IMG/VR virus record: IMGVR_UViG_3300005530_000004
Span: 1 to 64,000 of that record
DNA length: 64,000 nt
Reading direction: 5' to 3' (one strand)
From: a virus
Positions within the stretch are counted from its first letter, which is position 1, and every line of letters starts with the position of its first letter. The notes under the pieces were generated by a model. That model had not been told where the DNA came from. It searched no databases and saw only the letters and a list, made by a program, of their open reading frames with translations. The translations under genes and the position numbers were made by a program. Shown piece after piece: positions 35,167 through 52,174 of the stretch.

Positions 35167-35171
35167 ATAAA

Positions 35172-35603: not shown

Positions 35604-35614
35604 GATGTATTCTT

Positions 35615-35688: not shown

Positions 35689-35717
35689 TTTAACGTGTTA
35701 ACCAGAAAAGCAGAGAA

Positions 35718-36155: not shown

Positions 36156-36210
36156 TGTTTGTTGTTTACGTTTTGTCTACTTTCGTTCACCTTTTGTTGG
36201 AGAAATAAAA

Positions 36211-36678: not shown

Positions 36679-36718
36679 TAAATAAGAGGTTACTACATAA
36701 CAAACTGGATACAATAAA

Positions 36719-37366: not shown

Positions 37367-37414
37367 AAATGGAAAGACGTTGATTAAACGGAAATGCAAT
37401 CGCAACCCGTCAAT

Positions 37415-37478
37415 TTGTTAAGTTGTTAAGTTGTTAAGTTGTTAAGTTGTTACGTTGTTTGAACTTTGAACTTTGAAC
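37415..37478 (+). repeat. tandem repeats (TTGTTAAG)x4-5 and (TTTGAAC)x3
   Basis: direct reading; immediately upstream of the RBS of 37491. Confidence 0.9.
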
Positions 37479-37490
37479 AAGGAAATTGAA

Positions 37491-38441: not shown

Positions 38442-38460
38442 GCTGTATTGATACCCTTAG

Positions 38461-38631
38461 CAATTCCTAGATCAATGTTAATAATACATCTTAGAGGTGG
38501 GCTGTATTTTAACCTCTTGGTCTAGGAATTGTCCTTTTATTTTTTGACTTTAGATTTTCTAGGCCAATGTTAAGCTATTTTAATGCTAGCGCACATATAA
38601 AAATATCTTAACCTCTTGAGCCTAGAAATCT
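38461..38631 (+). other. two tandem related RNA hairpins
   Basis: both contain CAATGTTAA...TTAACCTCTTG closed by CTAG-containing stems (38461-38531, 38552-38631). Confidence 0.7.
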
Positions 38632-38717
38632 GCCGGTGTGGTGGAATTGGAATACACGACAGACTTAAAATCTGTTTGAAGGTAACTTCAATATCGGTTC
38701 GAGTCCGATCATCGGCA
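38632..38717 (+). tRNA. tRNA-Leu(TAA)
   Basis: acceptor GCCGGTG/CATCGGC, anticodon arm ACAGA-CTTAAAA-TCTGT, long variable arm, TTCGAGT T-loop. Confidence 0.92.
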
Positions 38718-38785
38718 TTTGATTACTTGTCGCAAATTAGATTACTTGTCGCCAATCAGTAGACTAGCAATGAAACAAATGTATA

Positions 38786-41662
38786 ATGTCCTCAATAAAT
38801 CTTGAGAATGTAAATGTACTCGCAGAATTTGAGCATTATAAAATAAAATTTGAATTTACTGGTGACTCCGATGAGTTAAAGACTACTTGTCCATTTCATT
38901 TGGATGAAAATCCTTCTTGCTTTGTTAATATAAGCAAGAAATCTTTTTGCTGCCATACCGCCGGGTGTGAAAAGCACGGCGAGATTATATCATTTCTTGC
39001 AGCAAAGACCAAAATATCTCGTGCGCAAATTGTAATTGAATTAGCACAGAGATATTCTCTTGATGGCGAAGAACAACAAGTAATTGATTTTCGTACTGTA
39101 GAAAGATTCTACGCTACGGAAATGCCAGAGATATTGCGCAATGAACTCTATAAAAGAGGAATCACAGACGAAGATATTAAGTTTCATAGAATAGGTTATG
39201 ATATATCAACAAAAAGAATTACAATACCTATTCGCAATCGTGAAGGTTTATTTGTTAATGTTCGCAAATATTTACCTGGCGCACCTGGAGCAGAAAAATT
39301 CAAAAATAGCAAAGGGCACGGTAAAGTAAGATTATGTCCTGTAGAACAATTAAAATATGAAACACTAATACTTTGTGGGGGAGAAATAAAAGCATTTGTT
39401 GCTGCAAGGCTAGCTAATCCACATAATGTTGGCGCAATTAGTGCAACTTGCGGAGAAGATAATTGGTCCAAAGAACTTACTGAAAACTTTATTGGTAAGC
39501 ATATAATTATATGCTTTGATATTGATGAGGCAGGTAAAAATGCTGCTTTGTTACGTGCAAGAATATTGTACAAAGTAGCTGCAAGCGTTAGAATTCTAAC
39601 GCTGCCGTTAAGCAGAGATAAATATCCAAAAGGCGATATAAATGATTACGTAGGACAAGAAGGCAAAACTGATATAATCGAATTATTATCTAATGAAGAA
39701 CTGTGCAAAGTATATGCACCAGTATTTACTAAGATATTAGATAATACAGAAGAGCCAGTTAAACTGCACTTATCGGAAGCTATTGCAGCCAAGAATGTTG
39801 GAAGTAGAATACAAATAAGCTCTGTTTTATCTAGCATAGATACAGCACCATTTGTTATTCCTAAAAATACATTTGCTTCGTGCGATCGCTCTCAAAAAGT
39901 ATGTAATATTTGTTCTATCTTTAGAAATAAAGAGAATGATTTATATGACCTAAATCCAGAAAGTAGTAATCTACTAGAGCTTGTGCATTCGAGAAAAAAT
40001 GCACATAGAGATGCTTTAATGGAATCATTGGGCATACCTAAAAAATGTCCGATTGTTGAATTCCATACAAACAATTTCTATAATTATGAAGATGCAAGAA
40101 TCTCTCCGCAGCTTGAAATTACAGATCGAGCTACAGATAGATTCTTACAGCCAAGTTTAATATTGTCTGATGATACAAATAAACTTGAACTAAATGAATC
40201 TTATGAACTTACCGGCAGAAATTGGCCGCATCCTCATTCACAACAATCTACGTTAATATTGTCTGAATATAAACAGACTACAGATGCTCTTAGTAATTAT
40301 AAACTAACGGATGAATATAAAGAAAAGCTAAAAATATTTCAGCCAGAGAACGACATTAATGACAAGTTAAATTCCATATATGCAGATTTATCCAGCAATG
40401 TAACAAGAATATTTGCTAGAGAACCTTTGCATTTAGCTGTTGACTTAGCATTTCATTCACCATTATTCTTGAACTTCGATAAAGAGCAAGTAAAAGGTTG
40501 GCTTGAAATATTAATTCTCGGAGATTCTGCGCAAGGTAAATCAAAAGTAAGTACAGGTCTTCGAGAATTTTATGGTCTCGGTGAAAAAATAGAAAGTAAA
40601 AATGCAACTATTGCTGGATTACTAGGTGGACTTCAAAAAACCGGCGATAGATGGTTTGTTACTTGGGGAATATTCCCTAACATGGATAAAAGACTTGTTA
40701 TCCTTGAAGAATTAAAAGGGATGCCGCAAGAAACATTTGCTAAATTAACGGATATGCGAAGTAGTGGGCTTGCAGAAATACCAAAAATTGAAAAACGAAG
40801 AACTCACGCAAGAACTAGACTAATTGCAATATCAAATACTAGATCAGGAAGAGAGTTAGCTGGATATGTTTATGGAGTTAAAGCTGTAGAAGAGTTAATT
40901 GGAAGTATAGAAGATGTAAGAAGGTTTGACTTAGCATTAATATTGTCTAATAAAGATGTTCCTCAAGAATTAATCAATATACCTTCTGAAAAACGAGAGA
41001 ACATCGAGCATAAATATACAAGTGATTTATGCAGAAATTTAATATTGTGGGCATGGACCGCAGAATGTAATTTTGACTTAGAAGCAGTAGAATTAATATT
41101 CAGTGCTGCAAATGAACTACCAAACTTATTTCACGATTCTATACCATTAATAGATAAAGGCTCAACTAGACATAAAATAGCCAGACTCGCAGCGGCATTG
41201 GCTGCAAGGTTATTTTCACATTGTGAAACTGGAAACTACAATATACTTGTCAAGAAGATTCATGTTGAGCATATAATTAAGTTTATAAAAGAAGTATACT
41301 CTACAGCATCTTTTGGCTACGATAAATACACCGAAGCAATAATAGAGTCTGGTAGACTGCTTGACGAGAAACAAATCATCCATGAATTTACAAATATGGA
41401 TGATCCAAAAGCTTTCTGTAGAAAATTACTTAACACTAATAGTATGGATCAAGTTGATGTTGCAGATTTCTCCGGATCAGATAGAGAAACAGCAAATAAT
41501 CTTGTAGGTATGTTAGTAAGAAAGAATGCAATATTTAGAGCTGGTGGAAGATATTTCAAAAATCCAGAGTTCATTACCAAATTAAGATATTGGGAAGGTA
41601 ACGGCGTCTTAAATACTAAACCAGACTACCTAAAGAAAAAGAAACCAGAGGAGAAATTCTGA
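38786..41662 (+). CDS. primase-helicase: CHC2 Zn finger + Toprim + MCM-family helicase
   Basis: CPFHLDENPSC..CHTAGC; ICFDIDEAG; KGDINDY; GDSAQGKS; LVILEELKGM; RRFDL. Confidence 0.9.
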   Translation: MSSINLENVNVLAEFEHYKIKFEFTGDSDELKTTCPFHLDENPSCFVNISKKSFCCHTAGCEKHGEIISFLAAKTKISRAQIVIELAQRYSLDGEEQQVIDFRTVERFYATEMPEILRNELYKRGITDEDIKFHRIGYDISTKRITIPIRNREGLFVNVRKYLPGAPGAEKFKNSKGHGKVRLCPVEQLKYETLILCGGEIKAFVAARLANPHNVGAISATCGEDNWSKELTENFIGKHIIICFDIDEAGKNAALLRARILYKVAASVRILTLPLSRDKYPKGDINDYVGQEGKTDIIELLSNEELCKVYAPVFTKILDNTEEPVKLHLSEAIAAKNVGSRIQISSVLSSIDTAPFVIPKNTFASCDRSQKVCNICSIFRNKENDLYDLNPESSNLLELVHSRKNAHRDALMESLGIPKKCPIVEFHTNNFYNYEDARISPQLEITDRATDRFLQPSLILSDDTNKLELNESYELTGRNWPHPHSQQSTLILSEYKQTTDALSNYKLTDEYKEKLKIFQPENDINDKLNSIYADLSSNVTRIFAREPLHLAVDLAFHSPLFLNFDKEQVKGWLEILILGDSAQGKSKVSTGLREFYGLGEKIESKNATIAGLLGGLQKTGDRWFVTWGIFPNMDKRLVILEELKGMPQETFAKLTDMRSSGLAEIPKIEKRRTHARTRLIAISNTRSGRELAGYVYGVKAVEELIGSIEDVRRFDLALILSNKDVPQELINIPSEKRENIEHKYTSDLCRNLILWAWTAECNFDLEAVELIFSAANELPNLFHDSIPLIDKGSTRHKIARLAAALAARLFSHCETGNYNILVKKIHVEHIIKFIKEVYSTASFGYDKYTEAIIESGRLLDEKQIIHEFTNMDDPKAFCRKLLNTNSMDQVDVADFSGSDRETANNLVGMLVRKNAIFRAGGRYFKNPEFITKLRYWEGNGVLNTKPDYLKKKKPEEKF
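41635..41660 (+). repeat. 26-bp direct repeat, copy 1 (copy 2 at 42147-42172)
   Basis: GAAAAAGAAACCAGAGGAGAAATTCT identical in both. Confidence 0.9.
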
Positions 41663-41847
41663 TGCCAAGGTCAGAAAGTTTAACATTTACTGATGTATCA
41701 GAATTTGAAATGAATTCAATTCGTTCGTGGGTTGGTAGAAAAGAACAATCATTATTTATGGGCGAGCTACATCGTGAACGACTACTAAAAGAAATTGATC
41801 GTTTAAATAATTTACTTGAAGAAGTGTCTACTGTCTATAAGGATTAA
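41662..41847 (+). CDS. hypothetical protein
   Basis: GAGGAG RBS; TGATG coupling. Confidence 0.6.
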   Translation: MPRSESLTFTDVSEFEMNSIRSWVGRKEQSLFMGELHRERLLKEIDRLNNLLEEVSTVYKD

Positions 41848-41853
41848 ATTCTG

Positions 41854-42174
41854 ATGGGATTCTATATTAATCCACCAAATGAAACTAAAGAATCTTTCTT
41901 AAAAAGAGAAGGTCTACCTATTGAATATCCATTCACTTGGGATGATATTTTAGATGATTATCTTCCTGTAATATTAATAAATAATGGTGTATTTAATGCT
42001 GCTGGAATTGCATATTGTGAAGATAAATTAAATGTTTTTTGTGATCCACGTGATCCTAGACCAAAAAAATATTTTGTTGTTAAAATAGATAAACTATATG
42101 ATGTTTCGCCAATACCAACGGATTTTGTATCTAAAAATTCAATAATGAAAAAGAAACCAGAGGAGAAATTCTAA
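41854..42174 (+). CDS. hypothetical phage protein
   Basis: MGFYIN..LPVILINNG.F.AAGIAY..D.RPK. Confidence 0.7.
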   Translation: MGFYINPPNETKESFLKREGLPIEYPFTWDDILDDYLPVILINNGVFNAAGIAYCEDKLNVFCDPRDPRPKKYFVVKIDKLYDVSPIPTDFVSKNSIMKKKPEEKF

Positions 42175-42617
42175 TGAAGATGTTAATTGATGCTGTTCGT
42201 TATCAACGTGAAAAAGGTCTGAACACTAATCGACATATTATCCGTAAATTTAAAGATGATTCAGAAGCTTTAAAAGAAGCTGCCGAGATAATTCGCACAG
42301 TAGTATCTGAATGTATAGAAAGAAATCTGCCCATAGACGATGCACTTGCAGTAATGCACATTGCTACTTTAAATAATAGAACTTTAACTATCGAAGAATA
42401 CACTAGAATAATTGAAGCATCGAAAGAGAATGTAGGCCCATCATTGAATAAAATTAGACAACATGATCGAGGCAACTCTGCAAGCCTCTATAAGAAAATA
42501 GACGAGCAACATAAAACAGAATTAAATACATTACGAGAGAATCTTACGGAGAACCATAGAAAAGAGCTTGAAGCACTTAAAGATCAGCATAGAAGAGATT
42601 TGGAGAAACATATATGA
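42174..42617 (+). CDS. hypothetical protein
   Basis: ORF; RBS. Confidence 0.6.
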   Translation: MKMLIDAVRYQREKGLNTNRHIIRKFKDDSEALKEAAEIIRTVVSECIERNLPIDDALAVMHIATLNNRTLTIEEYTRIIEASKENVGPSLNKIRQHDRGNSASLYKKIDEQHKTELNTLRENLTENHRKELEALKDQHRRDLEKHI

Positions 42618-42859
42618 ACAGCATATATCTAATAAGAAATAAATCTTTTCTTGATACAAATAGATATATTGCAATCTGCGCAAAAGATAGAGTTGATGCA
42701 GTTAGAATATTGCTGGAAACTTGTGGTTTAATAGTCAAAAATTGTCCTCATCCAGATATAGAAAGACTAGAAGGATTGAATTCTGGTTCGCATACAATTT
42801 ATCGTGTATACTTGAATGATTCAAACCATACACAATTAGAGTTTCTGGTGACAGGATAA
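42614..42859 (+). CDS. hypothetical protein
   Basis: ORF; ATGA overlap. Confidence 0.55.
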   Translation: MNSIYLIRNKSFLDTNRYIAICAKDRVDAVRILLETCGLIVKNCPHPDIERLEGLNSGSHTIYRVYLNDSNHTQLEFLVTG

Positions 42860-42864
42860 TAGCT

Positions 42865-43122
42865 ATGAACGAATACATCCTTAGTCTATATTGTTATGGC
42901 AAGTTAAGACCAAATCAAGAATTACATATAAGGAATGATAGGGCATCAAATTCAAAGGATATAATTCTTGAAATATATGATTATGATTATAAAACATATA
43001 GATCATATAGAGCCTTTAGACGTGTACCAATAGAACAATTAAAGCTGTCTACTATTGATCTTATTGAATATACAATAAACAATATGCTTGAAGAGATAGA
43101 AAAAGAATATGAAAAACGCTAA
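42865..43122 (+). CDS. hypothetical protein
   Basis: ORF. Confidence 0.55.
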   Translation: MNEYILSLYCYGKLRPNQELHIRNDRASNSKDIILEIYDYDYKTYRSYRAFRRVPIEQLKLSTIDLIEYTINNMLEEIEKEYEKR

Positions 43123-43405
43123 AAACAACAAACATAAAAATAATGCTAAAAACAACGCTAAAAACAACGCTAAAAACATTCGTCAAGCCTATAACGAACT
43201 AGAAAATCGTTATAGGCTTCTTGCAGATGCACATTTAATTCTGCAACGCACAATGAAGCTGATACTAATATCTCAGAAACAAAGTCCGCCTATGCTTTCT
43301 TATTCAAATAAAGAAGCAGAATATTACACTCTCCATGAATTAGATGATATGCGATTACAAGTAAGAGAAAATGAAGAATTAAATAGAATGGAGATAAGTA
43401 TTTAA
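43109..43405 (+). CDS. hypothetical protein (KNNA repeats)
   Basis: ORF. Confidence 0.55.
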   Translation: MKNAKNNKHKNNAKNNAKNNAKNIRQAYNELENRYRLLADAHLILQRTMKLILISQKQSPPMLSYSNKEAEYYTLHELDDMRLQVRENEELNRMEISI

Positions 43406-43406
43406 T

Positions 43407-45665
43407 ATGAGCGAGCCAGCACAGCAGCAATCCTTATCAGATATATTTGAAGAATTTGATAATATATTTGAGAAGAAAAAACGAAAGAAAAAAGATGTAT
43501 TCACTAAAACAATATCTGTAAAAGAAATGGAGGCTTCGCATGATATTAGATTTGCACAAGCTGCTTCTACTTCTACTTCTACTTCTACTTCTACTTCTAT
43601 TCCTAAAAGCAACGGAGGTTTAATTTGTTACAACGATTCTTATGAACGAGTTCTTCGAGGAATAATTGGTGCTGAGACAATATTTCTCGATTTAGAAACT
43701 GGCAGCTATGATCCTAAAATAACTTCATTAGATCCTTGGAAAAATTGTTGGCCAATAGGTGTAGCAATTTGTGTAGAAGAATATGGGCCAGCTTACTATA
43801 TTCCAATAAATAAAGACAACGAAAATAAAGTCTATGATCTAATATTTGCAATATTTCACCATCCAAACTGCAAGCGGTGGGTAAATCACAACGTAAAATA
43901 TGATGCTCACGTATTAAAGAATTCTGGTGGAATTACACTACCGTATTCGGTGCAGTTAATCGACACTGTAACATTGTCTAAACTTATTGATTCAGATAGA
44001 TTTAGATATGGCTTGGATATATTATCAAAAGATTGGTTAGACGAAGATATATCACAATATGAACTTGCATTCAAACCATACTTACATAAAAATAAAGACT
44101 ACTCTGTAATACCAGTAGATATTATTGGGCCATATGCTTGTCAAGATGTTATTACAAATAGGAAGTTATATAAATATATTTGTGAGAATCTCCCAGAAGA
44201 GTGCTATTTTGTTCGTGATATAGAAATAGAATTGACAAGAGTTCTATTTGATATTGAACAAAATGGAATGCGAATAGATCCAGACAGTTTGCAGATAACA
44301 GAGGTTCTTAACTATAAAAAACTAATAGAAATAGAAGAAGAACTAGAACGCATTACGGGCAGGATTTTCCGTCCGCATACAAATGCAGATTGCTTTGACA
44401 TTATATGTAACTTTTATGGTTTACCAGTTCTTAAATGGACAAATCAATCTGATGATGAAGAAGTAGAAGTAGATGAAGCGGAAAATGAAGATGAAGGAAA
44501 AAAAGGAAAAGGTGGTCCAAGTTTCGACAAGTTTGCTTTAACAGCATATTTATCTCATCCGACTGTACTAACAAACCCAAATATAAGACGGGTAATAGAA
44601 TTAATATCTGAATACAGGAAGAAAAATACATTCAACAATCTATTTGTTAAAAAATATAGGGAATTGGCAAGTGGAAATTTGTTACATCCATCTTACAATC
44701 AATGTGTACGATCTGGAAGATTGTCCTGCAAGCATCCAAATGCGCAGCAATTAAATGAAGAAGCTAAAGAGTTGATATTGCCGTATGGTAATGAAGGTAA
44801 TGAAGTATTCGTATCGTATGACTTTTCGCAAATTGAATATAGGACAATTGCACATTATATTGAAAGTCCATTATTATTAGATAAATATAATAATGATCCA
44901 GACGTTGATTTCCATGAGTTCGTTGCTGAATTAGTTAGAGAACAAACTGGCCTTGAAGGAATGACAAGAAAGGGTGGTAAAACTTTAAACTTCGGTTTAG
45001 GTTTTAATATGGGGAAGGCAAAGCTATTAAAATCTTTGCGTGGCGTTAAAGATTTAATGGACAGTTTATCAAAAGAAATAGATGAAGCCGGGGTTCCTGA
45101 AAACGAAAAAGAATCTGTATTTGCACGAGAATCAGAAAAACGCGCAGAGGCAGTATTCAATGCTTATCATAGAACTTTTCCAGAAATGAAAAGAACGTCT
45201 CGACAAGCACAAGCAGTTTGCGAACAACGTGGATACATCAGAAATCTATACAATAGACGAAGACACTTAAATAAGCAATTTGCATATAAAGCTTTCAATA
45301 CAATAAATCAAGCCAGTGCTGCTGATTTGATGAAGGCAGCTATGGTTAAAATTGGTAAATTACTTAGAGATTGTAATGAAAATAGCAGCAAAATCCGTAT
45401 TGTTGCTGATGTTCACGATGAAATATTATTCTCCATGCCAAAGCAGCTTGCAGAAGATGAACGAATTACACATACTATTGCATATATTCTTGAACATCCT
45501 ACTTTACCGAATAATATAGATGGAACAGAAAAGAAGTTGCTTGTTCCAATTCGTGTCTCAATGGGGATAGGTAATAATTGGAAAGAAGCCAGTAAATCTG
45601 CCAGAGTTTACAATTACGATAAAGCAGTAAGCGTTGAAGAGTTTAAGGAGATAATCAATGGATAA
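43407..45665 (+). CDS. polA: DNA polymerase family A with 3'-5' exonuclease
   Basis: FLDLET, HNVKYD, YACQD, SGRLSCKHPNAQQ, YDFSQIEYR, RKGGKTLNFG, NTINQASAAD, VHDEI. Confidence 0.96.
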   Translation: MSEPAQQQSLSDIFEEFDNIFEKKKRKKKDVFTKTISVKEMEASHDIRFAQAASTSTSTSTSTSIPKSNGGLICYNDSYERVLRGIIGAETIFLDLETGSYDPKITSLDPWKNCWPIGVAICVEEYGPAYYIPINKDNENKVYDLIFAIFHHPNCKRWVNHNVKYDAHVLKNSGGITLPYSVQLIDTVTLSKLIDSDRFRYGLDILSKDWLDEDISQYELAFKPYLHKNKDYSVIPVDIIGPYACQDVITNRKLYKYICENLPEECYFVRDIEIELTRVLFDIEQNGMRIDPDSLQITEVLNYKKLIEIEEELERITGRIFRPHTNADCFDIICNFYGLPVLKWTNQSDDEEVEVDEAENEDEGKKGKGGPSFDKFALTAYLSHPTVLTNPNIRRVIELISEYRKKNTFNNLFVKKYRELASGNLLHPSYNQCVRSGRLSCKHPNAQQLNEEAKELILPYGNEGNEVFVSYDFSQIEYRTIAHYIESPLLLDKYNNDPDVDFHEFVAELVREQTGLEGMTRKGGKTLNFGLGFNMGKAKLLKSLRGVKDLMDSLSKEIDEAGVPENEKESVFARESEKRAEAVFNAYHRTFPEMKRTSRQAQAVCEQRGYIRNLYNRRRHLNKQFAYKAFNTINQASAADLMKAAMVKIGKLLRDCNENSSKIRIVADVHDEILFSMPKQLAEDERITHTIAYILEHPTLPNNIDGTEKKLLVPIRVSMGIGNNWKEASKSARVYNYDKAVSVEEFKEIING

Positions 45666-45855
45666 ACAAAATCAGCAATATAAAGCATATCTCGGCGATA
45701 GCGTCTACATAGATTTCGATGGATATGGTTTAGTATTAACGACTGAAAATGGTATAGAAACAACAAATAGAATTTATCTTGAACCAGAAGTATTCAATAA
45801 ATTAGAAGTGTATGTTAAAGAATTAAAGAAACAATTATTAGATGCGAGAGATTAA
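45658..45855 (+). CDS. hypothetical phage protein
   Basis: YLGDSVY.DFDG..LTTENG..NRIYLEPEV. Confidence 0.75.
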   Translation: MDKQNQQYKAYLGDSVYIDFDGYGLVLTTENGIETTNRIYLEPEVFNKLEVYVKELKKQLLDARD

Positions 45856-45915
45856 ATAATGTATTTTTAAGTTTTTGGGGAAAGCTAGGGAATTAGCCGA
45901 TATATGTACACTATA

Positions 45916-45929
45916 TGTACATTTGTACA
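45916..45929. promoter_or_regulatory. TGTAC-N4-GTACA palindromic operator candidate
   Basis: lies within a cluster of four TGTACA (45905-45944); second copy at 63465-63478. Confidence 0.4.
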
Positions 45930-46107
45930 CTATTTTACTGTACATTTGTCTATCTATCAAGAAAATAATATTTGGAAAATAAGAAAAATTTCCTGCTAAA
46001 CAAAGTCAATTTTCTCGGGATTTTCAACAAAATATATTTGACAACGCAAGTATCATACCGGGAATGGTATTTGCGTCGCGGGCGCGGCCGCGCGAAGTAA
46101 CACTGTC

Positions 46108-46200
46108 TCGGCGGATCGTCGGGCGACCGACGATCCGCCGACGATCCGCCGACGATCCGCCGACGATTCGGCCCGCTGCGCTCGATTAAATCGAGCGCAG
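46108..46200 (+). repeat. GC-rich hairpins and 11-bp tandem repeat (CCGACGATCCG x4)
   Basis: 15-bp stem with GCGA loop at 46108-46141; repeats at 46127-46170; 11-bp stem at 46176-46200. Confidence 0.85.
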
Positions 46201-46240
46201 CACTTGCAAAAGATTCCTCAAAATAATCGTGGCAAGAGTA

Positions 46241-46269
46241 TTGACTTGCCGAATGAATCATGGAATACT
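46241..46269 (+). promoter_or_regulatory. putative sigma70 early promoter
   Basis: TTGACT-17-AATACT with TG extended -10. Confidence 0.5.
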
Positions 46270-46288
46270 TCACCTAGTTGATTGATTG

Positions 46289-46302
46289 TGCTCTTTGAAA
46301 AC
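46289..46302 (+). promoter_or_regulatory. rrn-type boxA antitermination element
   Basis: TGCTCTTTGAAAAC about 15 nt after the predicted +1; resembles boxA (E. coli TGCTCTTTAACA). Confidence 0.6.
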
Positions 46303-46375
46303 TTGGTTAGCGCGGCAACGGTTCGACGGAGCTAGCTCCGTCCCTGCCTAATCAAGCTTGCAAGCCGCGTACACA

Positions 46376-46762
46376 ACCACTAGGCGTTTTATTGTGCGGC
46401 GTCGTGTTCAACAGGGCAACAGGGCAATGGTCGCCAAACAACACGACAACCACAATAAAACGGAGAGAACAAAGTGAACAAATACTTTGTAATTTGGACC
46501 TACGTTGCGAATTACGGAAACTTGGAAGTCTTCGCCGATAGTGCGGAAGAAGCTTCCAAGATCGTGCTTAGCTCTTTCAGCACTGATTTCTCGGAACGCG
46601 GAACGGTCTATGTTTTTTCCGAGCCGGAGTACATTTACAACGGCCGCGAAGAAACGAAAAAGCGGAAGCAACAGAAAATCCAACAGGATATTGATAACAG
46701 ACTCAGCCGATAAGCAACACGACAACACGACATGGACGCCGCACAATAAAACGCCTAGTGGT
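46376..46762 (+). repeat. 28-bp perfect inverted repeat enclosing gene 46474-46713
   Basis: 46376-46403 is the reverse complement of 46735-46762. Confidence 0.95.
46474..46713 (+). CDS. hypothetical early protein
   Basis: GGAG RBS + GTG; LEVFADSAEEA motif. Confidence 0.7.
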   Translation: MNKYFVIWTYVANYGNLEVFADSAEEASKIVLSSFSTDFSERGTVYVFSEPEYIYNGREETKKRKQQKIQQDIDNRLSR

Positions 46763-46768
46763 AACAAG

Positions 46769-47133
46769 TAGCTCACCAGTGATTTAATCCTGCCCTGTTG
46801 ATTGTGTATCAAACGCCAAACAACACGACAACACGACAACACGAAGGATACAATAAAATGACATTGGCTAAAAAGCGTTTCGACGACAATGAAATCGTGA
46901 AAGAACACGAGCTGCCCTATCGACCATTCCGTGTCTCAGCCTCTTTGGAGAGTTTTTTTCTGCGGCTTGATGCCGCACAAATGACGCGCGAGAAATTAGA
47001 GTCTATCCAGACTCTAATCTGGCAAAAGCGCAAGGTAGAACACGATCTATGTTCCGCCGTGCAAAATGTTTTGAGGGGGCAATCTCGATAACAGGGCAAC
47101 ATAACAGGGCAGGATTAAATCACTGATGAGCTA
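46769..47133 (+). repeat. 32-bp inverted repeat enclosing gene 46858-47091
   Basis: 46769-46800 vs 47102-47133; one C.A mismatch and a terminal G.U. Confidence 0.95.
46858..47091 (+). CDS. hypothetical early protein
   Basis: AAGGA + ACAATAAAATG start context. Confidence 0.65.
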   Translation: MTLAKKRFDDNEIVKEHELPYRPFRVSASLESFFLRLDAAQMTREKLESIQTLIWQKRKVEHDLCSAVQNVLRGQSR

Positions 47134-47148
47134 GCAATCGTGCAACTA

Positions 47149-47194
47149 ATTCGGTAAATTCTCGCGCCGAATAAACTAACAATAAATGCGAGAA
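47149..47194 (+). promoter_or_regulatory. H-type RNA pseudoknot in leader
   Basis: S1 ATTCGGT/GCCGAAT, S2 TTCTCGC/GCGAGAA. Confidence 0.6.
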
Positions 47195-47219
47195 AACACT
47201 TTGTTTTGGAGACTGTACA

Positions 47220-47909
47220 GTGTCAACCACCCACAAGAATGCCCCCGCCAATCGTGACTCCGCGAAAGTTTCTGATCGGCCAGCCGAACAGAAAACCGAA
47301 ACGGCCACGACGACGGAAAAGAGGCGTGGTCGTCCGGCCGGAAACGGCGAGAAAAAGCAAACCGGGAAAATCAAATATCCCGGAGTTGCGAACGGGGAAA
47401 AACTCTCCGTCGTGCCGACGGATTTCGACCCCGCCAAACACAAGCGATTATCTGCGGACAATTTCACTTCACCCGCGCTTTTTGACGCGCACAAGGCGAA
47501 GCATTCCAAGCCGCGAAATTTCCACCCATTGCTTTTGAATGAGGCGGGCGAACCGGAAAACAAATTGTCGGAATTCCCTTCTGATGTTTCGGTCGAAGTG
47601 AGTTACGATTATTCGCTTAACGGCGAAAAGATCGTCGCTTTCCGCCCGCGTCATTTTTCGGATCGTCGTGCGCTTGCAAAAGCTCTGGTTCCCGCGCTGC
47701 AAAAGCAAATCGCCGCGCTGGAAAAAATCAGCACGATGACGGACGATCAAATCGAAAAACTCGGCCGCAAGGAAGAGTTGAAGCGCGGCATCGAGAAGAA
47801 AATCAAGGAAGCGACCGGATCGACAATCAGCATGGAGATGCTCGAAAAGATGCTCGCAACTCTTCCGCCGGAGATGCAAGAAAAGTATGCTGCGGCGACG
47901 GCGGGCTAG
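47220..47909 (+). CDS. basic early protein with AT-hook-like motif
   Basis: GGAG RBS + GTG; KRRGRPAG; GC-rich codons; followed by a terminator. Confidence 0.8.
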   Translation: MSTTHKNAPANRDSAKVSDRPAEQKTETATTTEKRRGRPAGNGEKKQTGKIKYPGVANGEKLSVVPTDFDPAKHKRLSADNFTSPALFDAHKAKHSKPRNFHPLLLNEAGEPENKLSEFPSDVSVEVSYDYSLNGEKIVAFRPRHFSDRRALAKALVPALQKQIAALEKISTMTDDQIEKLGRKEELKRGIEKKIKEATGSTISMEMLEKMLATLPPEMQEKYAAATAG

Positions 47910-47947
47910 TTGCTTGCGAATTACTTGTTTGGCGACAAGTTTTCTCG

Positions 47948-47982
47948 ACCCCTACGAAACAATTGTTTCGTAGGGGTTTTTT
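47948..47982 (+). terminator. intrinsic terminator
   Basis: ACCCCTACGAAAC-AATT-GTTTCGTAGGGGT followed by a T tract. Confidence 0.85.
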
Positions 47983-48002
47983 CGTGCGCTGAAATAATAC
48001 TT

Positions 48003-48108
48003 GCGTCGTCCAGGGAGCGAGCCAGCGTCGTCCAGGGAGCGAGCCAGCGTCGTCCAGGGAGCGAGCCAGCGTCGTCCAGGGAGCGAGCCAGCGTCGTCCA
48101 GGGAGCGA
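48003..48108 (+). repeat. 22-bp tandem repeat x4.8 (GCGTCGTCCAGGGAGCGAGCCA)
   Basis: perfect copies at 48003, 48025, 48047 and 48069; partial copy at 48091. Confidence 0.95.
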
Positions 48109-48122
48109 ATCCTAACAGCAGC

Positions 48123-48151
48123 TTGACGCGCTGCCGCGCTGTAGTTACACT
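48123..48151 (+). promoter_or_regulatory. sigma70 promoter
   Basis: TTGACG-17-TACACT. Confidence 0.7.
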
Positions 48152-48193
48152 GGCCGCACCGGGGCAATAGGCGCACCATGCGTCAAATAAAAA

Positions 48194-48252
48194 TATTTAT
48201 TTTCTCATTTAGCGGCGAGAAAAATAGATACAGTGAACAATAAAATGCCGCT
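48194..48252 (+). promoter_or_regulatory. H-type RNA pseudoknot in leader (second copy of the architecture)
   Basis: S1 TTTTCTC/GAGAAAA (extendable), S2 AGCGGC/GCCGCT. Confidence 0.6.
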
Positions 48253-48473
48253 TTTTCCACTGCACACTTCTACTCCTCTTTTTTGGAGAAAATATAATCA
48301 AGCAATAATCCGACAATCCGACAATCCGACAATTCGACAATTATTTTTTTCTCTGAACAATAAAACATGCTGTAACATTGGAGTTGCTGCAAGCCGATCG
48401 GATCGACCAAAATAAATCATTCACGCAAATAATTCCTACGTAGGAATTAAAAATTGAAGGGATACAAAAGACA

Positions 48474-48920
48474 ATGGAAATTACAGTAGAAAAAATTGCC
48501 AATTTACTCTTAAATCCAGAAAATCGTGATAAGATGCGAGAAACGAAAAATAGGGCTTGTGTAGAAATAGAAGAAGCCGCTAAGCAAATAGCTTTCCAGC
48601 GTAAAAAAATCGACGATGGTTTGATGCGACTCGCAGCCGCGAAAACGGACAAGGAAAATCCTAAGCATATCGAATCATATATAAAAAGCTTCAAGGAACG
48701 TCTTGAACGTGCTAAAAAAGAAATTGCAGAATGTCAAAAGCAAATTGAGATTCTGCAAGCTAGACTACCATCGGAAGCGCGGGCCGCTAAGGTAGAAAGT
48801 ATCGAGCAAGAGCTAAAGCAATATGAAAGCAATGTTAATGCGCTGATTTCGCAAAAGGGAGAATGGACTAGGTTGCGAGATTTAATTTCGCAAGCCGAAG
48901 AATTAAGAAAATTGTCTTGA
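48474..48920 (+). CDS. coiled-coil hypothetical protein
   Basis: ORF; heptad pattern. Confidence 0.75.
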   Translation: MEITVEKIANLLLNPENRDKMRETKNRACVEIEEAAKQIAFQRKKIDDGLMRLAAAKTDKENPKHIESYIKSFKERLERAKKEIAECQKQIEILQARLPSEARAAKVESIEQELKQYESNVNALISQKGEWTRLRDLISQAEELRKLS

Positions 48921-49073
48921 ATATCTTGAAAACAGAAACAAAAACAAAATTCGAGAACCCGACATAATTCCGTACAGTAGTGTACAAAATTGGTACGGAA
49001 TTTTGCCGCGTTTTCTGTCGAGTGGTATCGACGGCGCAGCACAATAAAACTTGTTTTGAAGAAAAGGAAGAAG

Positions 49074-49241
49074 ATGACATACAATCAATTACTAGATTGC
49101 ATTGAAGCAATGACATTAGAGCAAAGAGAGTGTGATGTTACAGTAGAAATAGACGATGAATGCTATCCAGCTACACTATATATTTCTGACGATAACCACG
49201 ACTCTTTAGAAAAGGATCACCCTGTTTTGAAAGCAATGTAA
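49074..49241 (+). CDS. small hypothetical phage protein
   Basis: AAGGA RBS; MTYNQLL..LEQ..CDVTV..HPVL. Confidence 0.7.
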   Translation: MTYNQLLDCIEAMTLEQRECDVTVEIDDECYPATLYISDDNHDSLEKDHPVLKAM

Positions 49242-49243
49242 AT

Positions 49244-49296
49244 AACAGCCATGTTTCCGCCGCAACATAAATGTTGCGGCGGTGGCGTAGGTTGTT
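49244..49296 (+). repeat. conserved intergenic hairpin element, copy 1
   Basis: AACAGCCATGTTTCCG-[stem]-CGGTGGCGTAGGTTGTT. Confidence 0.9.
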
Positions 49297-49374
49297 TGCT
49301 ATTTATGTTGTACTAGCAAGCCTACAATTCCGGCAAGTTGGAATTAAAAGAATACTTGCAATGAATCTTTTCCA

Positions 49375-49845
49375 ATGAGGGAAGTTGTGATGATCGCAAC
49401 AAAAAAGACGAATGGACGTTTCTCACGTTTCTCGGAACAGGATGCAAATGATCTAGCAACGAATCTTGCTAAATCTCTTTCGCATCAATTCTCTTTCCGC
49501 GAAAGCAAAGCTCTCGAAAAGAGAGTTGCAGCGTCTCCAGAGACGACAACAAAAAAGCTTCGATCTGGAAGCAAACTCTTTCAAATGCGGACAATTCTTT
49601 CGTCCGCCAAACGCGATAAATCTTTTCGCGTGAATCTGCAAGCCACAGAGCTTGCAGTAAAACTGTTCTCTCGCATGTTTTCTCGAAAACTTTGGCGAGA
49701 GAATATTGTTTATTCTCGTCGCGCCTGGTTGAACGGTTTTCCGGTCAACTATGACCAGCAAGATTTAATGCTGATTTGTCGTCGCGTTGCGAGAAGAATT
49801 GCGAGAAGAGTTGCTTCTAGCAATTGCTATGAAAATAGCAAATAG
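49375..49845 (+). CDS. basic hypothetical protein
   Basis: ORF; Arg/Lys-rich. Confidence 0.65.
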   Translation: MREVVMIATKKTNGRFSRFSEQDANDLATNLAKSLSHQFSFRESKALEKRVAASPETTTKKLRSGSKLFQMRTILSSAKRDKSFRVNLQATELAVKLFSRMFSRKLWRENIVYSRRAWLNGFPVNYDQQDLMLICRRVARRIARRVASSNCYENSK

Positions 49846-49855
49846 CTGATTCTGC

Positions 49856-49919
49856 AGACAGTCATGTCTCCGTGCTGTTATTTAACAGATAAATAACAGC
49901 ACGGTGCCGTAGATTGTTT
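49856..49919 (+). repeat. conserved intergenic hairpin element, copy 2
   Basis: AGACAGTCATGTCTCCG-[stem]-CGGTGCCGTAGATTGTTT. Confidence 0.9.
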
Positions 49920-49961
49920 TCTAGTTTCTGACACAATAAATTGAAGAAGGAGAGAAAGAAA

Positions 49962-50720
49962 ATGCAATTCGACAATGAAAAATTAAAAAAGATTATTGAG
50001 AAGCATCGAAAATATTATCTTAATGAAGAAGGTGGAGAACGTGCAGATTTGTCCGGTGCAAATTTGTTTGGTGCAGATTTGTCACGTGCAAATTTGTCCG
50101 GTGCAGATTTGTCCGGTGCAAATTTGTCGCGTGCAAATTTGTTTGGTGCAAATTTGTTTGGTGCAGATTTGTTTGGTGCAAATTTGTCTGGTGCAGATTT
50201 GTCGCGCGCAAATTTGTCTGATGCAAATTTGTCGCGTGCAATTTTGTCCGGTGCAAATTTGTCGCGTGCAAATTTGTTTGGTGCAAATTTGTCCGGTGCA
50301 GATTTGTCGCGTGCAAATTTGTTTGGTGCAAATTTGTCCGGTGCAGATTTGTTTGGTGCAAATTTGTTTGGTGCAAATTTGTTTGGTGCAGATTTGTCCG
50401 GTGCAAATTTGTTTGGTGCAAACTTATCCAGTGCAAAATTAAATGAAGAAACCAATATTACAGGAGAGTCTTGGAAGGAATATTTAGAAAAAGTTGTTCC
50501 GGCTTTACTGACAGCTGGCGGAAAAACAATCCAAGAAATTGTAGAATCTGGCTGTTGGAATTGCCATGAATGGCAAAATTGTCCAATGCACATCGCATTT
50601 GGAATTAATAATAAAGAGGACGGGCCAATTTTATTAAGGCCTAGGATCAAACAATTTATTCAATTATTTGATTTTAATTTGATCCCATGTCCGGTTGTTC
50701 CATTTACTTCTGTTAATTAA
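49962..50720 (+). CDS. pentapeptide repeat protein
   Basis: ~28 A(D/N)L(S/F)(G/R) repeats; Cys/His C-terminal domain. Confidence 0.92.
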
Positions 50721-50721
50721 C

Positions 50722-50782
50722 AAACAATCATGTTTCCGCGCCACGATATTTTTATATCGTGGCGCGATGACGTAGATTGTTT
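50722..50782 (+). repeat. conserved intergenic hairpin element, copy 3
   Basis: AAACAATCATGTTTCCG-[stem]-CGATGACGTAGATTGTTT. Confidence 0.9.
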
Positions 50783-50844
50783 TCTGGTTCTAGTTTCTAG
50801 TGGTTTCTGATTTCTGGCACAATAAAAGAAATGGAGATTGACAA

Positions 50845-51081
50845 ATGAAAGAAAAGATTGAATGTTTACTTCCGGATGATGGAAAAACTTGCGTCCGGCT
50901 ACGCGGAAAGAATGGTAACTTTGTTACCATTTTGCCTTGTGGAACCGACGTAAATGGAAATGTTACAAATGTCGATTTGTGCAAACCGAATGGAGAAGTG
51001 TTGTATTGTGGAGTAGATATTGAACTGGTCAATATCTTTTGTGAAGAACTCGGATTGGAAAGAATCTTGCAGGAGAAGTGA
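50845..51081 (+). CDS. hypothetical protein
   Basis: GGAG RBS. Confidence 0.65.
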   Translation: MKEKIECLLPDDGKTCVRLRGKNGNFVTILPCGTDVNGNVTNVDLCKPNGEVLYCGVDIELVNIFCEELGLERILQEK

Positions 51082-51086
51082 AATAA

Positions 51087-51788
51087 ATGAATCGCGATGA
51101 ATTGCTTGACACAATAAAAAGATTGCTTGCGCTTTCTAGCTCATCAAATGAGAATGAAAGCGCTTCGGCGCTTGCGCGAGCAAATAAATTGATGATGGAA
51201 CATAATATTTCCATGTTTGATGTTAATAATGAAACATCAACATCAAATTATGATGAAATAGATGTTTATACCGCCGGGCGAGCATCATCAAAAGATCCGT
51301 ATTTGTGCAGTATTCTGCAAGATTACTTCTTTGTGAAAGCGATTTATATTCCATCCGACGGTTATCAACGAAAAACCACGTTGAAATTTTTCGGTGATAA
51401 AGTAAATATTCAAATTGCTGTATATGTCTATAAAGTATTGGATATACTTTTTAGTGTTTACGCAGATGTAAACAAGATTCAAGTAAAACATCGGCGAGCA
51501 TATTATCAAGGATTATGCCACGGATTTAAGCGAAAACTTAAAGAAGAACGTGATGCAATGAATAGAAACATTGCAAGTAGTGGAACAGCACTTGTCTTAA
51601 TTGATAAGGCGCTTGTCAAAGCATATAATAACAGATTTCCGACCACTAAAACAAAATCTGTTTCTAAAATGACAATGAATGACCGTGCTTACAATCAAGG
51701 AATTGTTGACGCAAAAGAAATAAACTTGCGTCAAGGTATAGAAGGTACAAAAGGCACCACACAACCAAAGATTCAAGATTGGAGTTGA
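51087..51788 (+). CDS. DUF2786-family protein
   Basis: TIKRLLALSSSSNENESASALARANKLMMEHNI; AYYQG; AYNQG. Confidence 0.85.
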   Translation: MNRDELLDTIKRLLALSSSSNENESASALARANKLMMEHNISMFDVNNETSTSNYDEIDVYTAGRASSKDPYLCSILQDYFFVKAIYIPSDGYQRKTTLKFFGDKVNIQIAVYVYKVLDILFSVYADVNKIQVKHRRAYYQGLCHGFKRKLKEERDAMNRNIASSGTALVLIDKALVKAYNNRFPTTKTKSVSKMTMNDRAYNQGIVDAKEINLRQGIEGTKGTTQPKIQDWS

Positions 51789-51790
51789 TA

Positions 51791-51847
51791 AAACAATCAT
51801 GTCTCCGCCGTGCAGAATATTCTGCACGGCGACGGCGTAGGTTGTTT
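51791..51847 (+). repeat. conserved intergenic hairpin element, copy 4
   Basis: AAACAATCATGTCTCCG-[stem]-CGACGGCGTAGGTTGTTT. Confidence 0.9.
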
Positions 51848-51880
51848 CTGGTTTCTGACACAATAAATGTAAGGGAGAAG

Positions 51881-52096
51881 ATGGTTATGTCTAATTCAAT
51901 TCATTATTTCGGAATAACAATTAACAGAGAGGGTGATATAGTAGTAGATGATATTACTATATTTAGTCATATAAGAGAAACAGCAAAATATTTAGGGTAT
52001 CGAACACAAGATATACACCGAGATTCTCGTCTCCCTCAACTTGTAATTCTAATTGGCAATCAAAAAGATGCGATCGCCTTTATTGAATTGATATAG
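51881..52096 (+). CDS. hypothetical protein
   Basis: AAGGGAG RBS before ATG 51881. Confidence 0.6.
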   Translation: MVMSNSIHYFGITINREGDIVVDDITIFSHIRETAKYLGYRTQDIHRDSRLPQLVILIGNQKDAIAFIELI

Positions 52097-52174
52097 GGGT
52101 GTAGAATTTCGCGGATTATGGCTAAAAAGATATTGCGTTATAGTTTCTGGTTTCTGATACAATAAATTGGAGAA

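What the first reader, a model, noticed from the sequence alone, without database searches (positions are those of the whole stretch)
47149..48252. Two H-type pseudoknots with identical architecture but different stem sequences in early leaders
Seen: PK1 (47149-47194) has S1 ATTCGGT/GCCGAAT, L1 AAA, S2 TTCTCGC/GCGAGAA, no L2 and a 15-nt L3 ending AACAATAAAT. PK2 (48194-48252) has S1 TTTTCTC/GAGAAAA (extendable to 13 bp with one bulge), L1 ATTT, S2 AGCGGC/GCCGCT, no L2 and a 16-nt L3 ending AACAATAAAAT. PK1 starts 15 nt after the second enclosing stem and ends ~13 nt before the RBS of 47220. PK2 lies ~35 nt after the predicted start of the 48123 promoter. Inference: 5'-end protection against exonucleases, a translational operator like the T4 gene 32 pseudoknot, or an unknown ligand-binding RNA.
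Basis: partly seen in the sequence, partly recalled or inferred. Interest (0 to 1): 0.72.

Follow-up and report, generated by a model that had tools for sequence, protein, structure and literature searches.

The report
Two pseudoknot-shaped phage mRNA leaders
Two early-gene leaders of an uncultured 75-kb soil phage can each fold into the same small RNA knot, which holds an A-rich ribosome-landing word and an AUG at a fixed spot; this looks like a new translation or stability control element but is untested.

Summary
All four stems exist at the stated coordinates. PK1 has S1 of 6 Watson-Crick pairs plus 1 G.U and S2 of 7 pairs. PK2 has S1 of 7 pairs (13 with one bulged A and one G.U) and S2 of 6 pairs. 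L2 is 0 in both.

PK1 is the strongest H-type candidate on the + strand of the 74.9-kb genome; shuffles give 0.11 as strong. PK2 alone is not significant (1.65 expected). The pair is. Both hold the word ACAATAAA at the 3' end of L3, and the G of a following ATG is the first base of S2'. Shuffled flanks give about 0.0007 per motif copy. In 1.13 Mb of distantly related phage DNA, both strands, I found only one weak match, inside a gene.

ACAATAAA(A)TG is a genome-wide intergenic word that also starts three real genes. The layout therefore resembles the E. coli rpsO (S15) operator more than T4 gene 32. Metatranscriptome contigs show the PK1 operon is transcribed, and PK1 lies 14-19 nt from an RNA segment boundary. 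PK2 has no RNA cover.

No homologous leader could be fetched, so covariation is untested. Function is inferred: translational gate first, 5' stabiliser second. This scan has noted similar start-codon-linked leader pseudoknots in other phages.

The parts
47149..47155 (+). PK1 S1 5' arm ATTCGGT
   Evidence: Pairs with 47166-47172: 6 WC + 1 G.U.
47156..47158 (+). PK1 L1 (AAA)
   Evidence: 3 nt, crossing the 7-bp S2.
47159..47165 (+). PK1 S2 5' arm TTCTCGC
   Evidence: 7 WC pairs with 47188-47194. Also a 12/13 complement of 46986-46998 (I15).
47166..47172 (+). PK1 S1 3' arm GCCGAAT
   Evidence: No L2.
47173..47187 (+). PK1 L3 (15 nt), holding ACAATAAA at 47179-47186
47188..47194 (+). PK1 S2 3' arm GCGAGAA; G47188 is the G of ATG 47186-47188
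47186..47257 (+). Possible 23-codon upstream ORF starting in PK1 and overlapping SD and GTG of the gene at 47220 (not shown to be translated)
   Evidence: Read from the sequence. The context ACAATAAATG recurs at 51860.
47220..47909 (+). 229-aa ORFan gene downstream of PK1 (SD GGAG 47209-47212), followed by terminator hairpin 47947-47978
   Evidence: Covered by RNA contigs 47130/35-47883/935.
47103..47133 (+). 3' arm of the 31-bp enclosing stem (partner 46769-46799); the RNA contig boundary lies at its end
48123..48151 (+). Sigma-70-like site TTGACG-17-TACACT upstream of PK2, preceded by 5 x 22-bp repeats 48003-48112
   Evidence: Not shown to be active.
48200..48206 (+). PK2 S1 5' arm TTTTCTC (extendable to 48194)
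   Evidence: 7 WC pairs with 48217-48223. The extension adds 5 WC + 1 G.U with bulged A48224.
48207..48210 (+). PK2 L1 (ATTT)
48211..48216 (+). PK2 S2 5' arm AGCGGC
   Evidence: 6 WC pairs with 48247-48252.
48217..48223 (+). PK2 S1 3' arm GAGAAAA (extendable to 48230)
48224..48246 (+). PK2 L3 (23 nt; 16 nt if S1 is extended), holding ACAATAAA at 48237-48244
48247..48252 (+). PK2 S2 3' arm GCCGCT; G48247 is the G of ATG 48245-48247; followed by TTTTT
48245..48415 (+). Possible 56-codon ORF starting in PK2; it runs through the 8-nt repeats 48307-48338 and a third motif copy 48357-48364, so it is probably not a conserved protein

Best explanation
PK1 and PK2 are two copies of one design of cis-acting RNA element at the 5' ends of early phage messages. 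Each is an H-type pseudoknot with two coaxial stems of 6-7 bp, a 3-4 nt L1 and no L2. Its long A-rich loop L3 displays the phage's usual ribosome-landing word, ACAAUAAA(A). Its second stem begins at the G of the AUG that follows that word. I infer that the knot works as a translational gate of the rpsO (S15) type. A 30S subunit can dock on the open A-rich loop, but the start codon and the next 6-7 nt are locked in S2. Initiation at this upstream AUG then depends on how stable the knot is, possibly set by a protein. In PK1 a ribosome that starts there would read across the SD and GUG of the 229-aa gene. The same compact fold, 14-19 nt from a processed 5' end (PK1) or about 36 nt from a predicted transcript start (PK2), would also slow 5'-to-3' decay. 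Shown: the pairings, their non-random co-occurrence with the motif, transcription of the PK1 region, and the use of the same word at real gene starts. Inferred: that both stems form together, that the AUGs are used, and the whole regulatory logic.
For: The stems are present as described. PK1 is the strongest H-type candidate in the genome, with 0.11 expected from shuffles. Both knots place ACAATAAA at the end of L3 with S2' starting at the G of ATG. Shuffled flanks give about 0.0007 per motif copy, yet 2 of 28 copies show it. No other motif copy has this arrangement among relaxed 5-bp hits, apart from one chance-level AT-rich case in coding DNA. A natural control of 1.13 Mb on both strands yields one weak AT-rich hit inside a 957-aa ORF, giving Poisson P of about 0.0005-0.002. 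ACAATAAA is enriched: 28 on + against 3 on -, and AACAATAAA occurs 11 times against 3.4 expected. It abuts the ATG of three long ORFs at 32723, 36719 and 46858. PK2's AUG has A at -3 and -6, which are positive determinants of initiation in F. johnsoniae and E. coli (PMC6847099). In the rpsO operator the knot spans the 5'-UTR plus a short coding stretch, and the ribosome binds on its extensive loop (PMC3985624). The geometry fits classical H-type rules (established knowledge): L1 of 3-4 nt over a 6-7 bp S2, and L3 of 15-23 nt over a 7-bp S1. RNA contigs from two studies cover 47130/35-47883/935, including all of PK1, while flanking stretches are covered only by DNA runs.
Against: There is no comparative support. 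Only two copies exist and no homologous leader could be retrieved, so covariation is untested. PK2 alone is within chance (1.65 expected, z -1.55) and has no RNA cover. PK1's AUG context is poorer, with U at -3 and C at -6. The upstream ORFs have no detectable conservation, and PK2's runs through 8-nt repeats. The statistical definition was fixed after seeing the finding. The pseudoknot penalties are recalled literature values, not a validated program. The host is unknown, so the initiation rules are assumed.
Confidence: 0.38

Rival explanations
1. 5' stabiliser only. The knots, or just their strongest hairpin, protect the message body from 5'-end-dependent or 5'-to-3' exonucleolytic decay after the upstream stems are cut. 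The AUG and the motif in L3 are incidental to this.
For: RNA contigs in two studies begin at 47130/47135, right after the 31-bp stem arm and 14-19 nt before PK1. That piece has depth 10.5-12.8, against 3-5 for the two upstream pieces. PK2 lies about 36 nt from a predicted transcript start. T4 gene 32 mRNA, which carries a 5' pseudoknot, is the most stable T4 message (PMC3014915).
Against: Contig depth is a poor measure, and contigs cannot define RNA ends (tool caveat). A 14-19 nt single-stranded 5' tail would not block 5'-end-dependent RNase E-type entry (established knowledge, from memory). This reading does not explain why both knots hold the start-site word and an AUG in the same register.
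Confidence: 0.2
2. No pseudoknot. Hairpins interleave by chance in a hairpin-rich regulatory island next to a common start-site word, or S1 and S2 are used one at a time and never together.
For: Shuffles give about 3.4 7+7-bp and about 10 7+6-bp interleaved helix pairs per 75 kb, and real coding DNA holds many. PK2 is not significant alone. Nested folding picks S1 or S2 singly with ordinary z-scores. There is no covariation, and the test definition was post hoc.
Against: The joint register with the motif has P of about 1e-4 to 2e-3 in two independent controls. PK1 is the top candidate genome-wide. S1 and S2 share no nucleotides other than one contested junction G (G47166 in PK1, G48217 in PK2), which either stem could claim through a G.U pair, so nothing prevents both from forming. 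L1 + S2 = 10 nt in both copies.
Confidence: 0.27
3. Protein- or ligand-sensing RNA of another kind. Either the knot is a scaffold that presents AACAAUAAA(A)U to an RNA-binding protein (RegA-like repressor, Hfq-type A-R-N binder), or PK2's S2 plus its U5 run acts as a knot-dependent attenuator.
For: [quoted passage not shown] AAC-AAU-AAA fits an (A-R-N)3 pattern (from memory). GCCGCT is followed directly by TTTTT at 48253-48257.
Against: RegA sites are unstructured. No RegA or Hfq homolog was sought or seen, and the early proteins are ORFans. No Rfam family matches. PK1 has no U run after S2. A 6-bp stem with a 30-nt loop is a poor terminator.
Confidence: 0.1
4. DNA-level operators. The interleaved inverted repeats are binding sites for dimeric DNA-binding proteins.
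For: Both S1 repeats are 7-bp arms separated by exactly 10 bp. The island is full of repeats and palindromes.
Against: The two copies share geometry but not arm sequence, which is what RNA structure predicts and a shared DNA-binding protein does not. Both lie downstream of the promoter-like sites, inside transcribed leaders.
Confidence: 0.05

Closest known systems
E. coli rpsO (ribosomal protein S15) translational operator pseudoknot
   Same: An H-type knot made of 5'-UTR plus the first coding nucleotides. The ribosome-binding element lies on the long connecting loop, and the start region is held in the second stem, which allows ribosome entrapment (PMC3985624).
   Different: Here the loop carries an A-rich word, not an SD. 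The AUG opens a short upstream ORF, not the regulated gene (at least in PK1). No alternative double-hairpin form is evident. No binding protein is known. There is no sequence or Rfam match. This is a functional analogy, not membership.
T4/T2/RB69 gene 32 leader pseudoknot
   Same: A phage mRNA leader with a compact coaxial two-stem H-type knot near the 5' end of a stable message (PMC3014915).
   Different: The gene 32 knot lies 67 nt upstream of the AUG and nucleates cooperative gp32 binding along an unstructured A+U tract with UUAA(A) repeats. PK1 ends 25 nt before the GUG with only AACACUUUGUUUU in between, contains an AUG itself, and precedes an ORFan with no SSB features.
H-type pseudoknot riboswitches that mask ribosome-binding sites (preQ1-I/II, SAM-II)
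   Same: Small H-type knots with an A-rich 3' loop or tail and a second stem that covers initiation signals (from memory).
   Different: No covariance-model match at E <= 10. The stems are longer (6-7 bp). There is no conserved ligand pocket, since only the single-stranded word is shared between PK1 and PK2.
Start-codon-linked leader pseudoknots noted by this scan in other uncultured phages (e1-5734392, e1-5760770, e1-5749040, e1-5926753, e1-6061275)
   Same: Small pseudoknots in front of or over start codons of phage early genes. Several were read as translational controls, and one was likewise compared with rpsO.
   Different: No look-alike of this region exists in the scan. Only two copies occur here, with no covariation data. 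These are AI notes, not independent evidence.

Membership tests
T4 gene 32-type autoregulatory leader | Pseudoknot at the far 5' end, about 67 nt upstream of the initiation codon | tested here: not met
   PK1 ends 25 nt before GTG 47220. PK2 ends 221 nt before ATG 48474. Reference layout from PMC3014915.
T4 gene 32-type autoregulatory leader | Unstructured A+U-rich tract with UUAA(A) repeats between the knot and the RBS | tested here: not met
   PK1 is followed by 14 nt, AACACTTTGTTTTG, and then GGAG. PK2 is followed by a pyrimidine-rich stretch and 8-nt CA-rich repeats.
T4 gene 32-type autoregulatory leader | The regulated gene encodes the ssDNA-binding protein that binds the knot | tested here: not met
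   The 229-aa and 148-aa products have no significant Pfam or PHROG family and no SSB/OB hit. The atlas search was uninformative. Binding itself is not testable here.
rpsO/S15-type entrapment operator | The knot includes the 5'-UTR and the first coding nucleotides, with the start region in stem 2 | tested here: met
   The G of ATG 47186-88 and of ATG 48245-47 is the first base of S2'. This holds only if these ATGs are used, which is not shown.
rpsO/S15-type entrapment operator | The ribosome-binding element is exposed on the long loop | tested here: inconclusive
   L3 carries ACAATAAA, the word that precedes three real gene starts. It is not an SD, and ribosome binding is untested.
rpsO/S15-type entrapment operator | Homology to the S15 leader RNA and control by S15 | tested here: not met
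   No Rfam match of any kind at E <= 10. The downstream genes are phage ORFans.
Known pseudoknot riboswitch classes (preQ1-I/II/III, SAM-II/V, fluoride, guanidine-III) | Match to the family covariance model | tested here: not met
   cmscan of 45800-48600 on both strands at E <= 10 gave only five sub-threshold unrelated hits, none over the knots.
Generic H-type pseudoknot | Two interleaved helices with loop lengths able to span the grooves | tested here: met
   Stems are 7+7 and 7+6 bp, L1 is 3 and 4 nt, L2 is 0, and L3 is 15 and 23 nt. Both are energy optima in a pseudoknot-aware enumeration.
Generic H-type pseudoknot | Support from covariation or probing | not testable with these tools
The runs show no variants.

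The most novel reading that the evidence does not exclude
A previously undescribed class of phage leader element. It is an H-type pseudoknot that embeds an SD-independent, A-rich start site (ACAAUAAA-AUG) at its L3/S2' junction, and it sits at the 5' end of early messages released from a polycistronic precursor by cleavage of gene-enclosing stems. It would couple message processing, stability and ribosome entry (entrapment or an upstream-ORF gate) in a single 46-59 nt fold.
Probability: 0.3. Interest if true: 0.68.

Novelty: new variant of a known kind. Interest (0 to 1): 0.5.

Why it matters
[quoted passage not shown] A second, differently built design would broaden that picture, because here the start codon and its A-rich landing site are part of the knot itself. 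It would add a compact natural part for SD-independent translational control. Together with the stem-enclosed genes just upstream, it would point to an early transcript organised around RNA processing. The case is weaker than it could be, because only two copies exist and nothing comparative or experimental supports them yet.

Tried and rejected
1. DNA similarity of 45600-49400 to 50,697 phage records found no match.
2. tblastn of the 229-aa protein against phages found none.
3. The search for related loci with the DNA polymerase, with the 229-aa protein, and with its 3-sequence alignment, in viral, metagenome and genome collections, found no relatives.
4. Exact-pattern scans gave nothing useful. 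GTTTCTGACACAATAAA returned 8 unexamined hits, presumed chance. TGAACAATAAAATGCCGC returned one chance coding hit, L017, with no BLAST similarity to the genome. The PK1 24-mer returned none.
The leaders of P0002 and P0003 (54% and 44% homologs of the 229-aa protein) and the phage contigs holding P0005-P0012 (60-75% DNA polymerase identity, all Logan-only) could not be fetched.
6. Eighty IMG/VR loci of 31-46% DNA-polymerase relatives were fetched and served only as a natural control. They contain no ACAATAAA enrichment and no comparable knot.
7. The runs laid show no sequence variants over the region, so no population-level covariation is available. The absence of RNA cover over 47936-48736 (PK2) is uninformative.
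8. Motif as a sigma-70 -10 element or T4-late-like promoter: -35 positions are not conserved. RNA contigs start 35-54 nt upstream of the three motif copies in the operon, at the stems, not after the motifs. This was not adopted but is not excluded for the copies at 49.9-52.2 kb.
9. Bacteroidota host: many SD-less A-rich starts suggest it. However, 4-mer SDs occur at 28-77% of genes by region, against 3.5% in the control. TAnnTTTG is not enriched, and no bS21 gene is present. The host is left open. Terminase and primase searches gave no host clue.
10. PK1 and PK2 as diverged duplicates: the TTCTC/GAGAA helix is S2 in PK1 but S1 in PK2, so no positional homology of stems can be claimed.
Full report
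CONTEXT. The window is the first 64 kb of a 74,872-bp virus record with 100-bp direct terminal repeats. The sequence is held by rhizosphere and soil metagenomes. All long ORFs lie on the + strand. The genome is about 33% GC, but 46000-48200 is about 50% GC. Recognisable genes are terminase, Mu-type portal, SNF2 helicase, primase-helicase and a family-A DNA polymerase that ends at 45665. No cultured phage is close: the polymerase is at most 35% identical and the region has no DNA match.

The GC-rich island holds a promoter-like site at 46241. It also holds two small genes that are each enclosed by long inverted repeats: 28 bp at 46376-46403/46735-46762 and 31 bp at 46769-46799/47103-47133. Then come PK1, a 229-aa ORFan (47220-47909), a strong terminator hairpin (47947-47978), five 22-bp tandem repeats, a second promoter-like site (48123-48151) and PK2.

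THE OBSERVATION.
- PK1: S1 is 6 WC + 1 G.U, L1 is AAA, S2 is 7 WC, there is no L2, and L3 is 15 nt.
- PK2: S1 is 7 WC, L1 is ATTT, S2 is 6 WC, and there is no L2.
- L3 of PK2 is 23 nt. It is 16 nt only when S1 is extended to 13 bp, which brings in a bulged A48224 and one G.U.
- The quoted distances to the enclosing stem, the SD and the promoter-like site are correct.

IS IT MORE THAN CHANCE?
- Nested folding alone is unremarkable, with z between -0.9 and -1.4. In the full early transcript the MFE takes S1 and the centroid takes S2 of PK1, as expected if the two compete only under a nested model.
- I scanned the whole genome for H-type arrangements: stems of at least 6 bp, at most 1 G.U, L1 1-6, L2 0-1, L3 3-25. 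Such arrangements are common. There are 54 loci at 6+6 bp against 31 in shuffles, and 10 at 7+7 bp against 3.4. Most lie in coding DNA and are AT-rich.
- Ranked by the stacking energy of the weaker stem, PK1 is first and PK2 third on the + strand. Shuffles give 0.11 and 1.65 equally strong candidates per genome.
- I then enumerated all H-type knots in 61-71 nt windows. The energy was ViennaRNA stacking plus a 9.6 kcal/mol initiation penalty and 0.1 per loop nucleotide. Those penalties are recalled from the Dirks-Pierce model, not validated.
- So PK1 stands on its own and PK2 does not.

What makes the pair convincing is a shared register with a sequence word. Both L3 loops end in AACAATAAA(A)T, and the next base, G, opens S2'.
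- With the word held fixed and the flanks shuffled, a 6+6-bp knot in that register arises in about 0.07% of trials per site. Two of the 28 genomic copies have it.
- Relaxing to 5-bp stems adds only one chance-level AT-rich case in coding DNA.
- As a natural-sequence control I scanned 80 loci of distant polymerase relatives, 1.13 Mb on both strands. This gave one weak AT-rich arrangement, present in two near-identical contigs and lying inside a 957-aa ORF.
- That rate predicts 0.03-0.07 per 75 kb, giving Poisson P of about 0.0005-0.002 for two.
- The definition was fixed after reading the finding, so these P values are optimistic. Even a hundred-fold discount still leaves the pair unlikely to be accidental.

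WHAT THE SHARED WORD IS. ACAATAAA occurs 28 times on the + strand and 3 times on the - strand. AACAATAAA occurs 11 times against 3.4 expected. By my reading, sixteen copies lie outside the long ORFs.
- Three copies abut the ATG of long ORFs as ACAATAAAATG: the SNF2 helicase at 32723, and the genes at 36719 and 46858.
- Other copies lie 14-27 nt before SD-led starts at 46474, 49074, 49962, 50845, 51887 and 52175. The last four of these also follow GTTTCT repeats downstream of conserved hairpin elements.
- PK2 carries ACAATAAAATG, and PK1 carries ACAATAAATG, a form that recurs at 51860 as an ATG-TAA start-stop.
- Many genes of this phage, especially the structural block, have no SD but do have A-rich ...ATAAAATG contexts. 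Four-base SDs occur at 28-77% of genes by region, against 3.5% at internal ATGs.
- Adenines at -3, -6, -12 and -13 promote initiation in F. johnsoniae. A at -3 and -6 also does so in E. coli (PMC6847099).
- PK2's AUG has A at -3 and -6. PK1's has U and C there.

My reading, which is an inference, is that the word is an A-rich ribosome-loading or translation-enhancer element. On that reading both knots are built around a start site. I considered whether the word is instead a promoter -10 element. Upstream -35 positions are not conserved. In the operon the RNA contigs begin 35-54 nt upstream of each motif copy, at the stems. That reading was therefore not adopted.

RNA EVIDENCE. Contigs of two metatranscriptomes from different studies cover three pieces:
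- 46406/46417 to 46723/46740;
- 46796/46810 to 47090/47109;
- 47130/47135 to 47883/47935.
These are the segments between and after the arms of the enclosing stems. Coverage stops short of the terminator.

The flanks 45600-46405 and 47936-48736 have no RNA cover, although DNA runs cover them. DNA carry-over is therefore unlikely, and the operon is transcribed. The arms are shorter than, or not identical over, the 31-mers used for assembly, so repeat collapse is not an obvious cause of the breaks. One DNA run also breaks near 46732 and 47145, however, and contigs cannot define RNA ends. I treat this as a weak hint of RNase III-type processing.

PK1 lies 14-19 nt inside the third piece. That piece is 2-4 times deeper than the other two. 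PK2 has no RNA cover, which says nothing either way. No run shows a sequence variant.

MECHANISM. The layout has a landing element on the long loop and the start codon at the entrance of stem 2. This matches the E. coli rpsO operator, where the knot spans the 5'-UTR plus a short coding stretch. There the 30S subunit binds the SD on the extensive loop, and S15 traps the complex (PMC3985624).

It does not match T4 gene 32. That knot lies 67 nt upstream and nucleates protein spreading along an unstructured A+U tract (PMC3014915). Neither feature is present here, and the downstream proteins are ORFans.

I therefore favour a translational gate (confidence about 0.38). In PK1 a ribosome starting at AUG 47186 would read 23 codons across the SD and GUG of gene 47220. 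A pure 5'-stabiliser role comes second (0.20), and chance or non-simultaneous hairpins third (0.27). A protein-presenting or attenuator role and a DNA-operator role are minor.

No Rfam family matches. The two knots are not simple duplicates, because the TTCTC/GAGAA helix is S2 in PK1 and S1 in PK2.

LIMITS. The decisive test, covariation in homologous leaders, could not be run. The 229-aa protein has two homologs, at 54% and 44% identity, and the polymerase has eight relatives at 60-75% identity. All other collection searches were negative.

RELATION TO THE SCAN. Earlier notes describe the stem-enclosed genes (e1-6084508) and the hairpin elements (e1-6084509) of this same genome. They also describe several start-codon-linked leader pseudoknots in other uncultured phages, one of them likewise compared with rpsO. 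Those are unchecked AI notes, and no look-alike of this region exists in the scan.

VERDICT. Its function is unproven. It would be a new variant of a known kind (pseudoknot leader operators), of moderate interest.

Noticed in passing
window 46376-47133: RNA contigs of two metatranscriptomes cover only the segments between the arms of the 28-bp and 31-bp gene-enclosing inverted repeats. The arms, the 46277-46405 leader and the flanks are absent, while DNA runs cover them. This fits cleavage of the stems into separate small messages.
   Followed up: partly
window 32615-52166 (copies at 32615, 32629, 32715, 36711, 46452, 46743, 46850, 47179, 48237, 48357, 49041, 49933, 50819, 51860, 52159): ACAATAAA is a strand-specific intergenic word (28 on +, 3 on -). 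It lies either directly before ATG or 14-27 nt before SD-led starts. Several copies are followed by 1-5 codon mini-ORFs (ATG-TAA at 51867, ATG CTG TAA at 48368).
   Followed up: partly
window 32400-32610: A second GC-rich island in the 33% GC genome. It has a TTGACG-17-TATATA promoter-like site (32523) and a palindrome over the -10, ahead of the SNF2 helicase gene. The design resembles 46241 and 48123.
   Followed up: no
whole genome (G000): Shine-Dalgarno use is mosaic. 4-mer SDs occur at 11 of 39 genes in 1-32.4 kb (structural block) but at 17 of 22 in 53.3-64 kb; the internal-ATG control is 3.5%. SD-less genes have A-rich ...ATAAAATG contexts. No bS21 gene is present. The host is unresolved.
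   Followed up: partly
window 47204-47212 and 48281-48289: Both knot-borne ORFs encode LFWRxY, arising from a shared UUUUGGAGA. In PK1 this is the SD of gene 47220. In PK2 no start codon follows it.
   Followed up: no
window 46986-46998 vs 47155-47167: GCGCGAGAAATTA inside gene 46858-47091 is a 12/13 complement of the S2 5' arm of PK1. It is a possible alternative partner before the precursor is cut.
   Followed up: no
window 45903-45950, 46033 and 47214-47219: Four TGTACA palindromes and three TAnnTTTG boxes lie in the AT-rich gap before the island. CTGTACAG recurs over the GTG start of gene 47220.
   Followed up: no
window 46116-46170, 46828-46846, 48003-48112, 48307-48338: Short tandem repeats lie in the leaders: 11-bp x4, ACAACACG x3, 22-bp x5 and CAATCCGA x4. 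The CA-rich octamers sit just upstream of ACAATAAA copies.
   Followed up: no
window 47220-47909: The 229-aa ORFan keeps a KRRGRP (AT-hook-like) motif and an RHFSDRR motif in its only two homologs (54% and 44% identity). No family or fold was assigned.
   Followed up: partly
window 49962-50720: A pentapeptide-repeat protein (Pfam E 4e-40) is encoded among the early genes. It could be a DNA mimic.
   Followed up: no
window 48307-48346 (run X3): A 319-nt DNA contig in another rhizosphere sample carries related but different CAATTCGA-type octamer repeats with unlike flanks. A relative of this leader region may exist in that sample.
   Followed up: no
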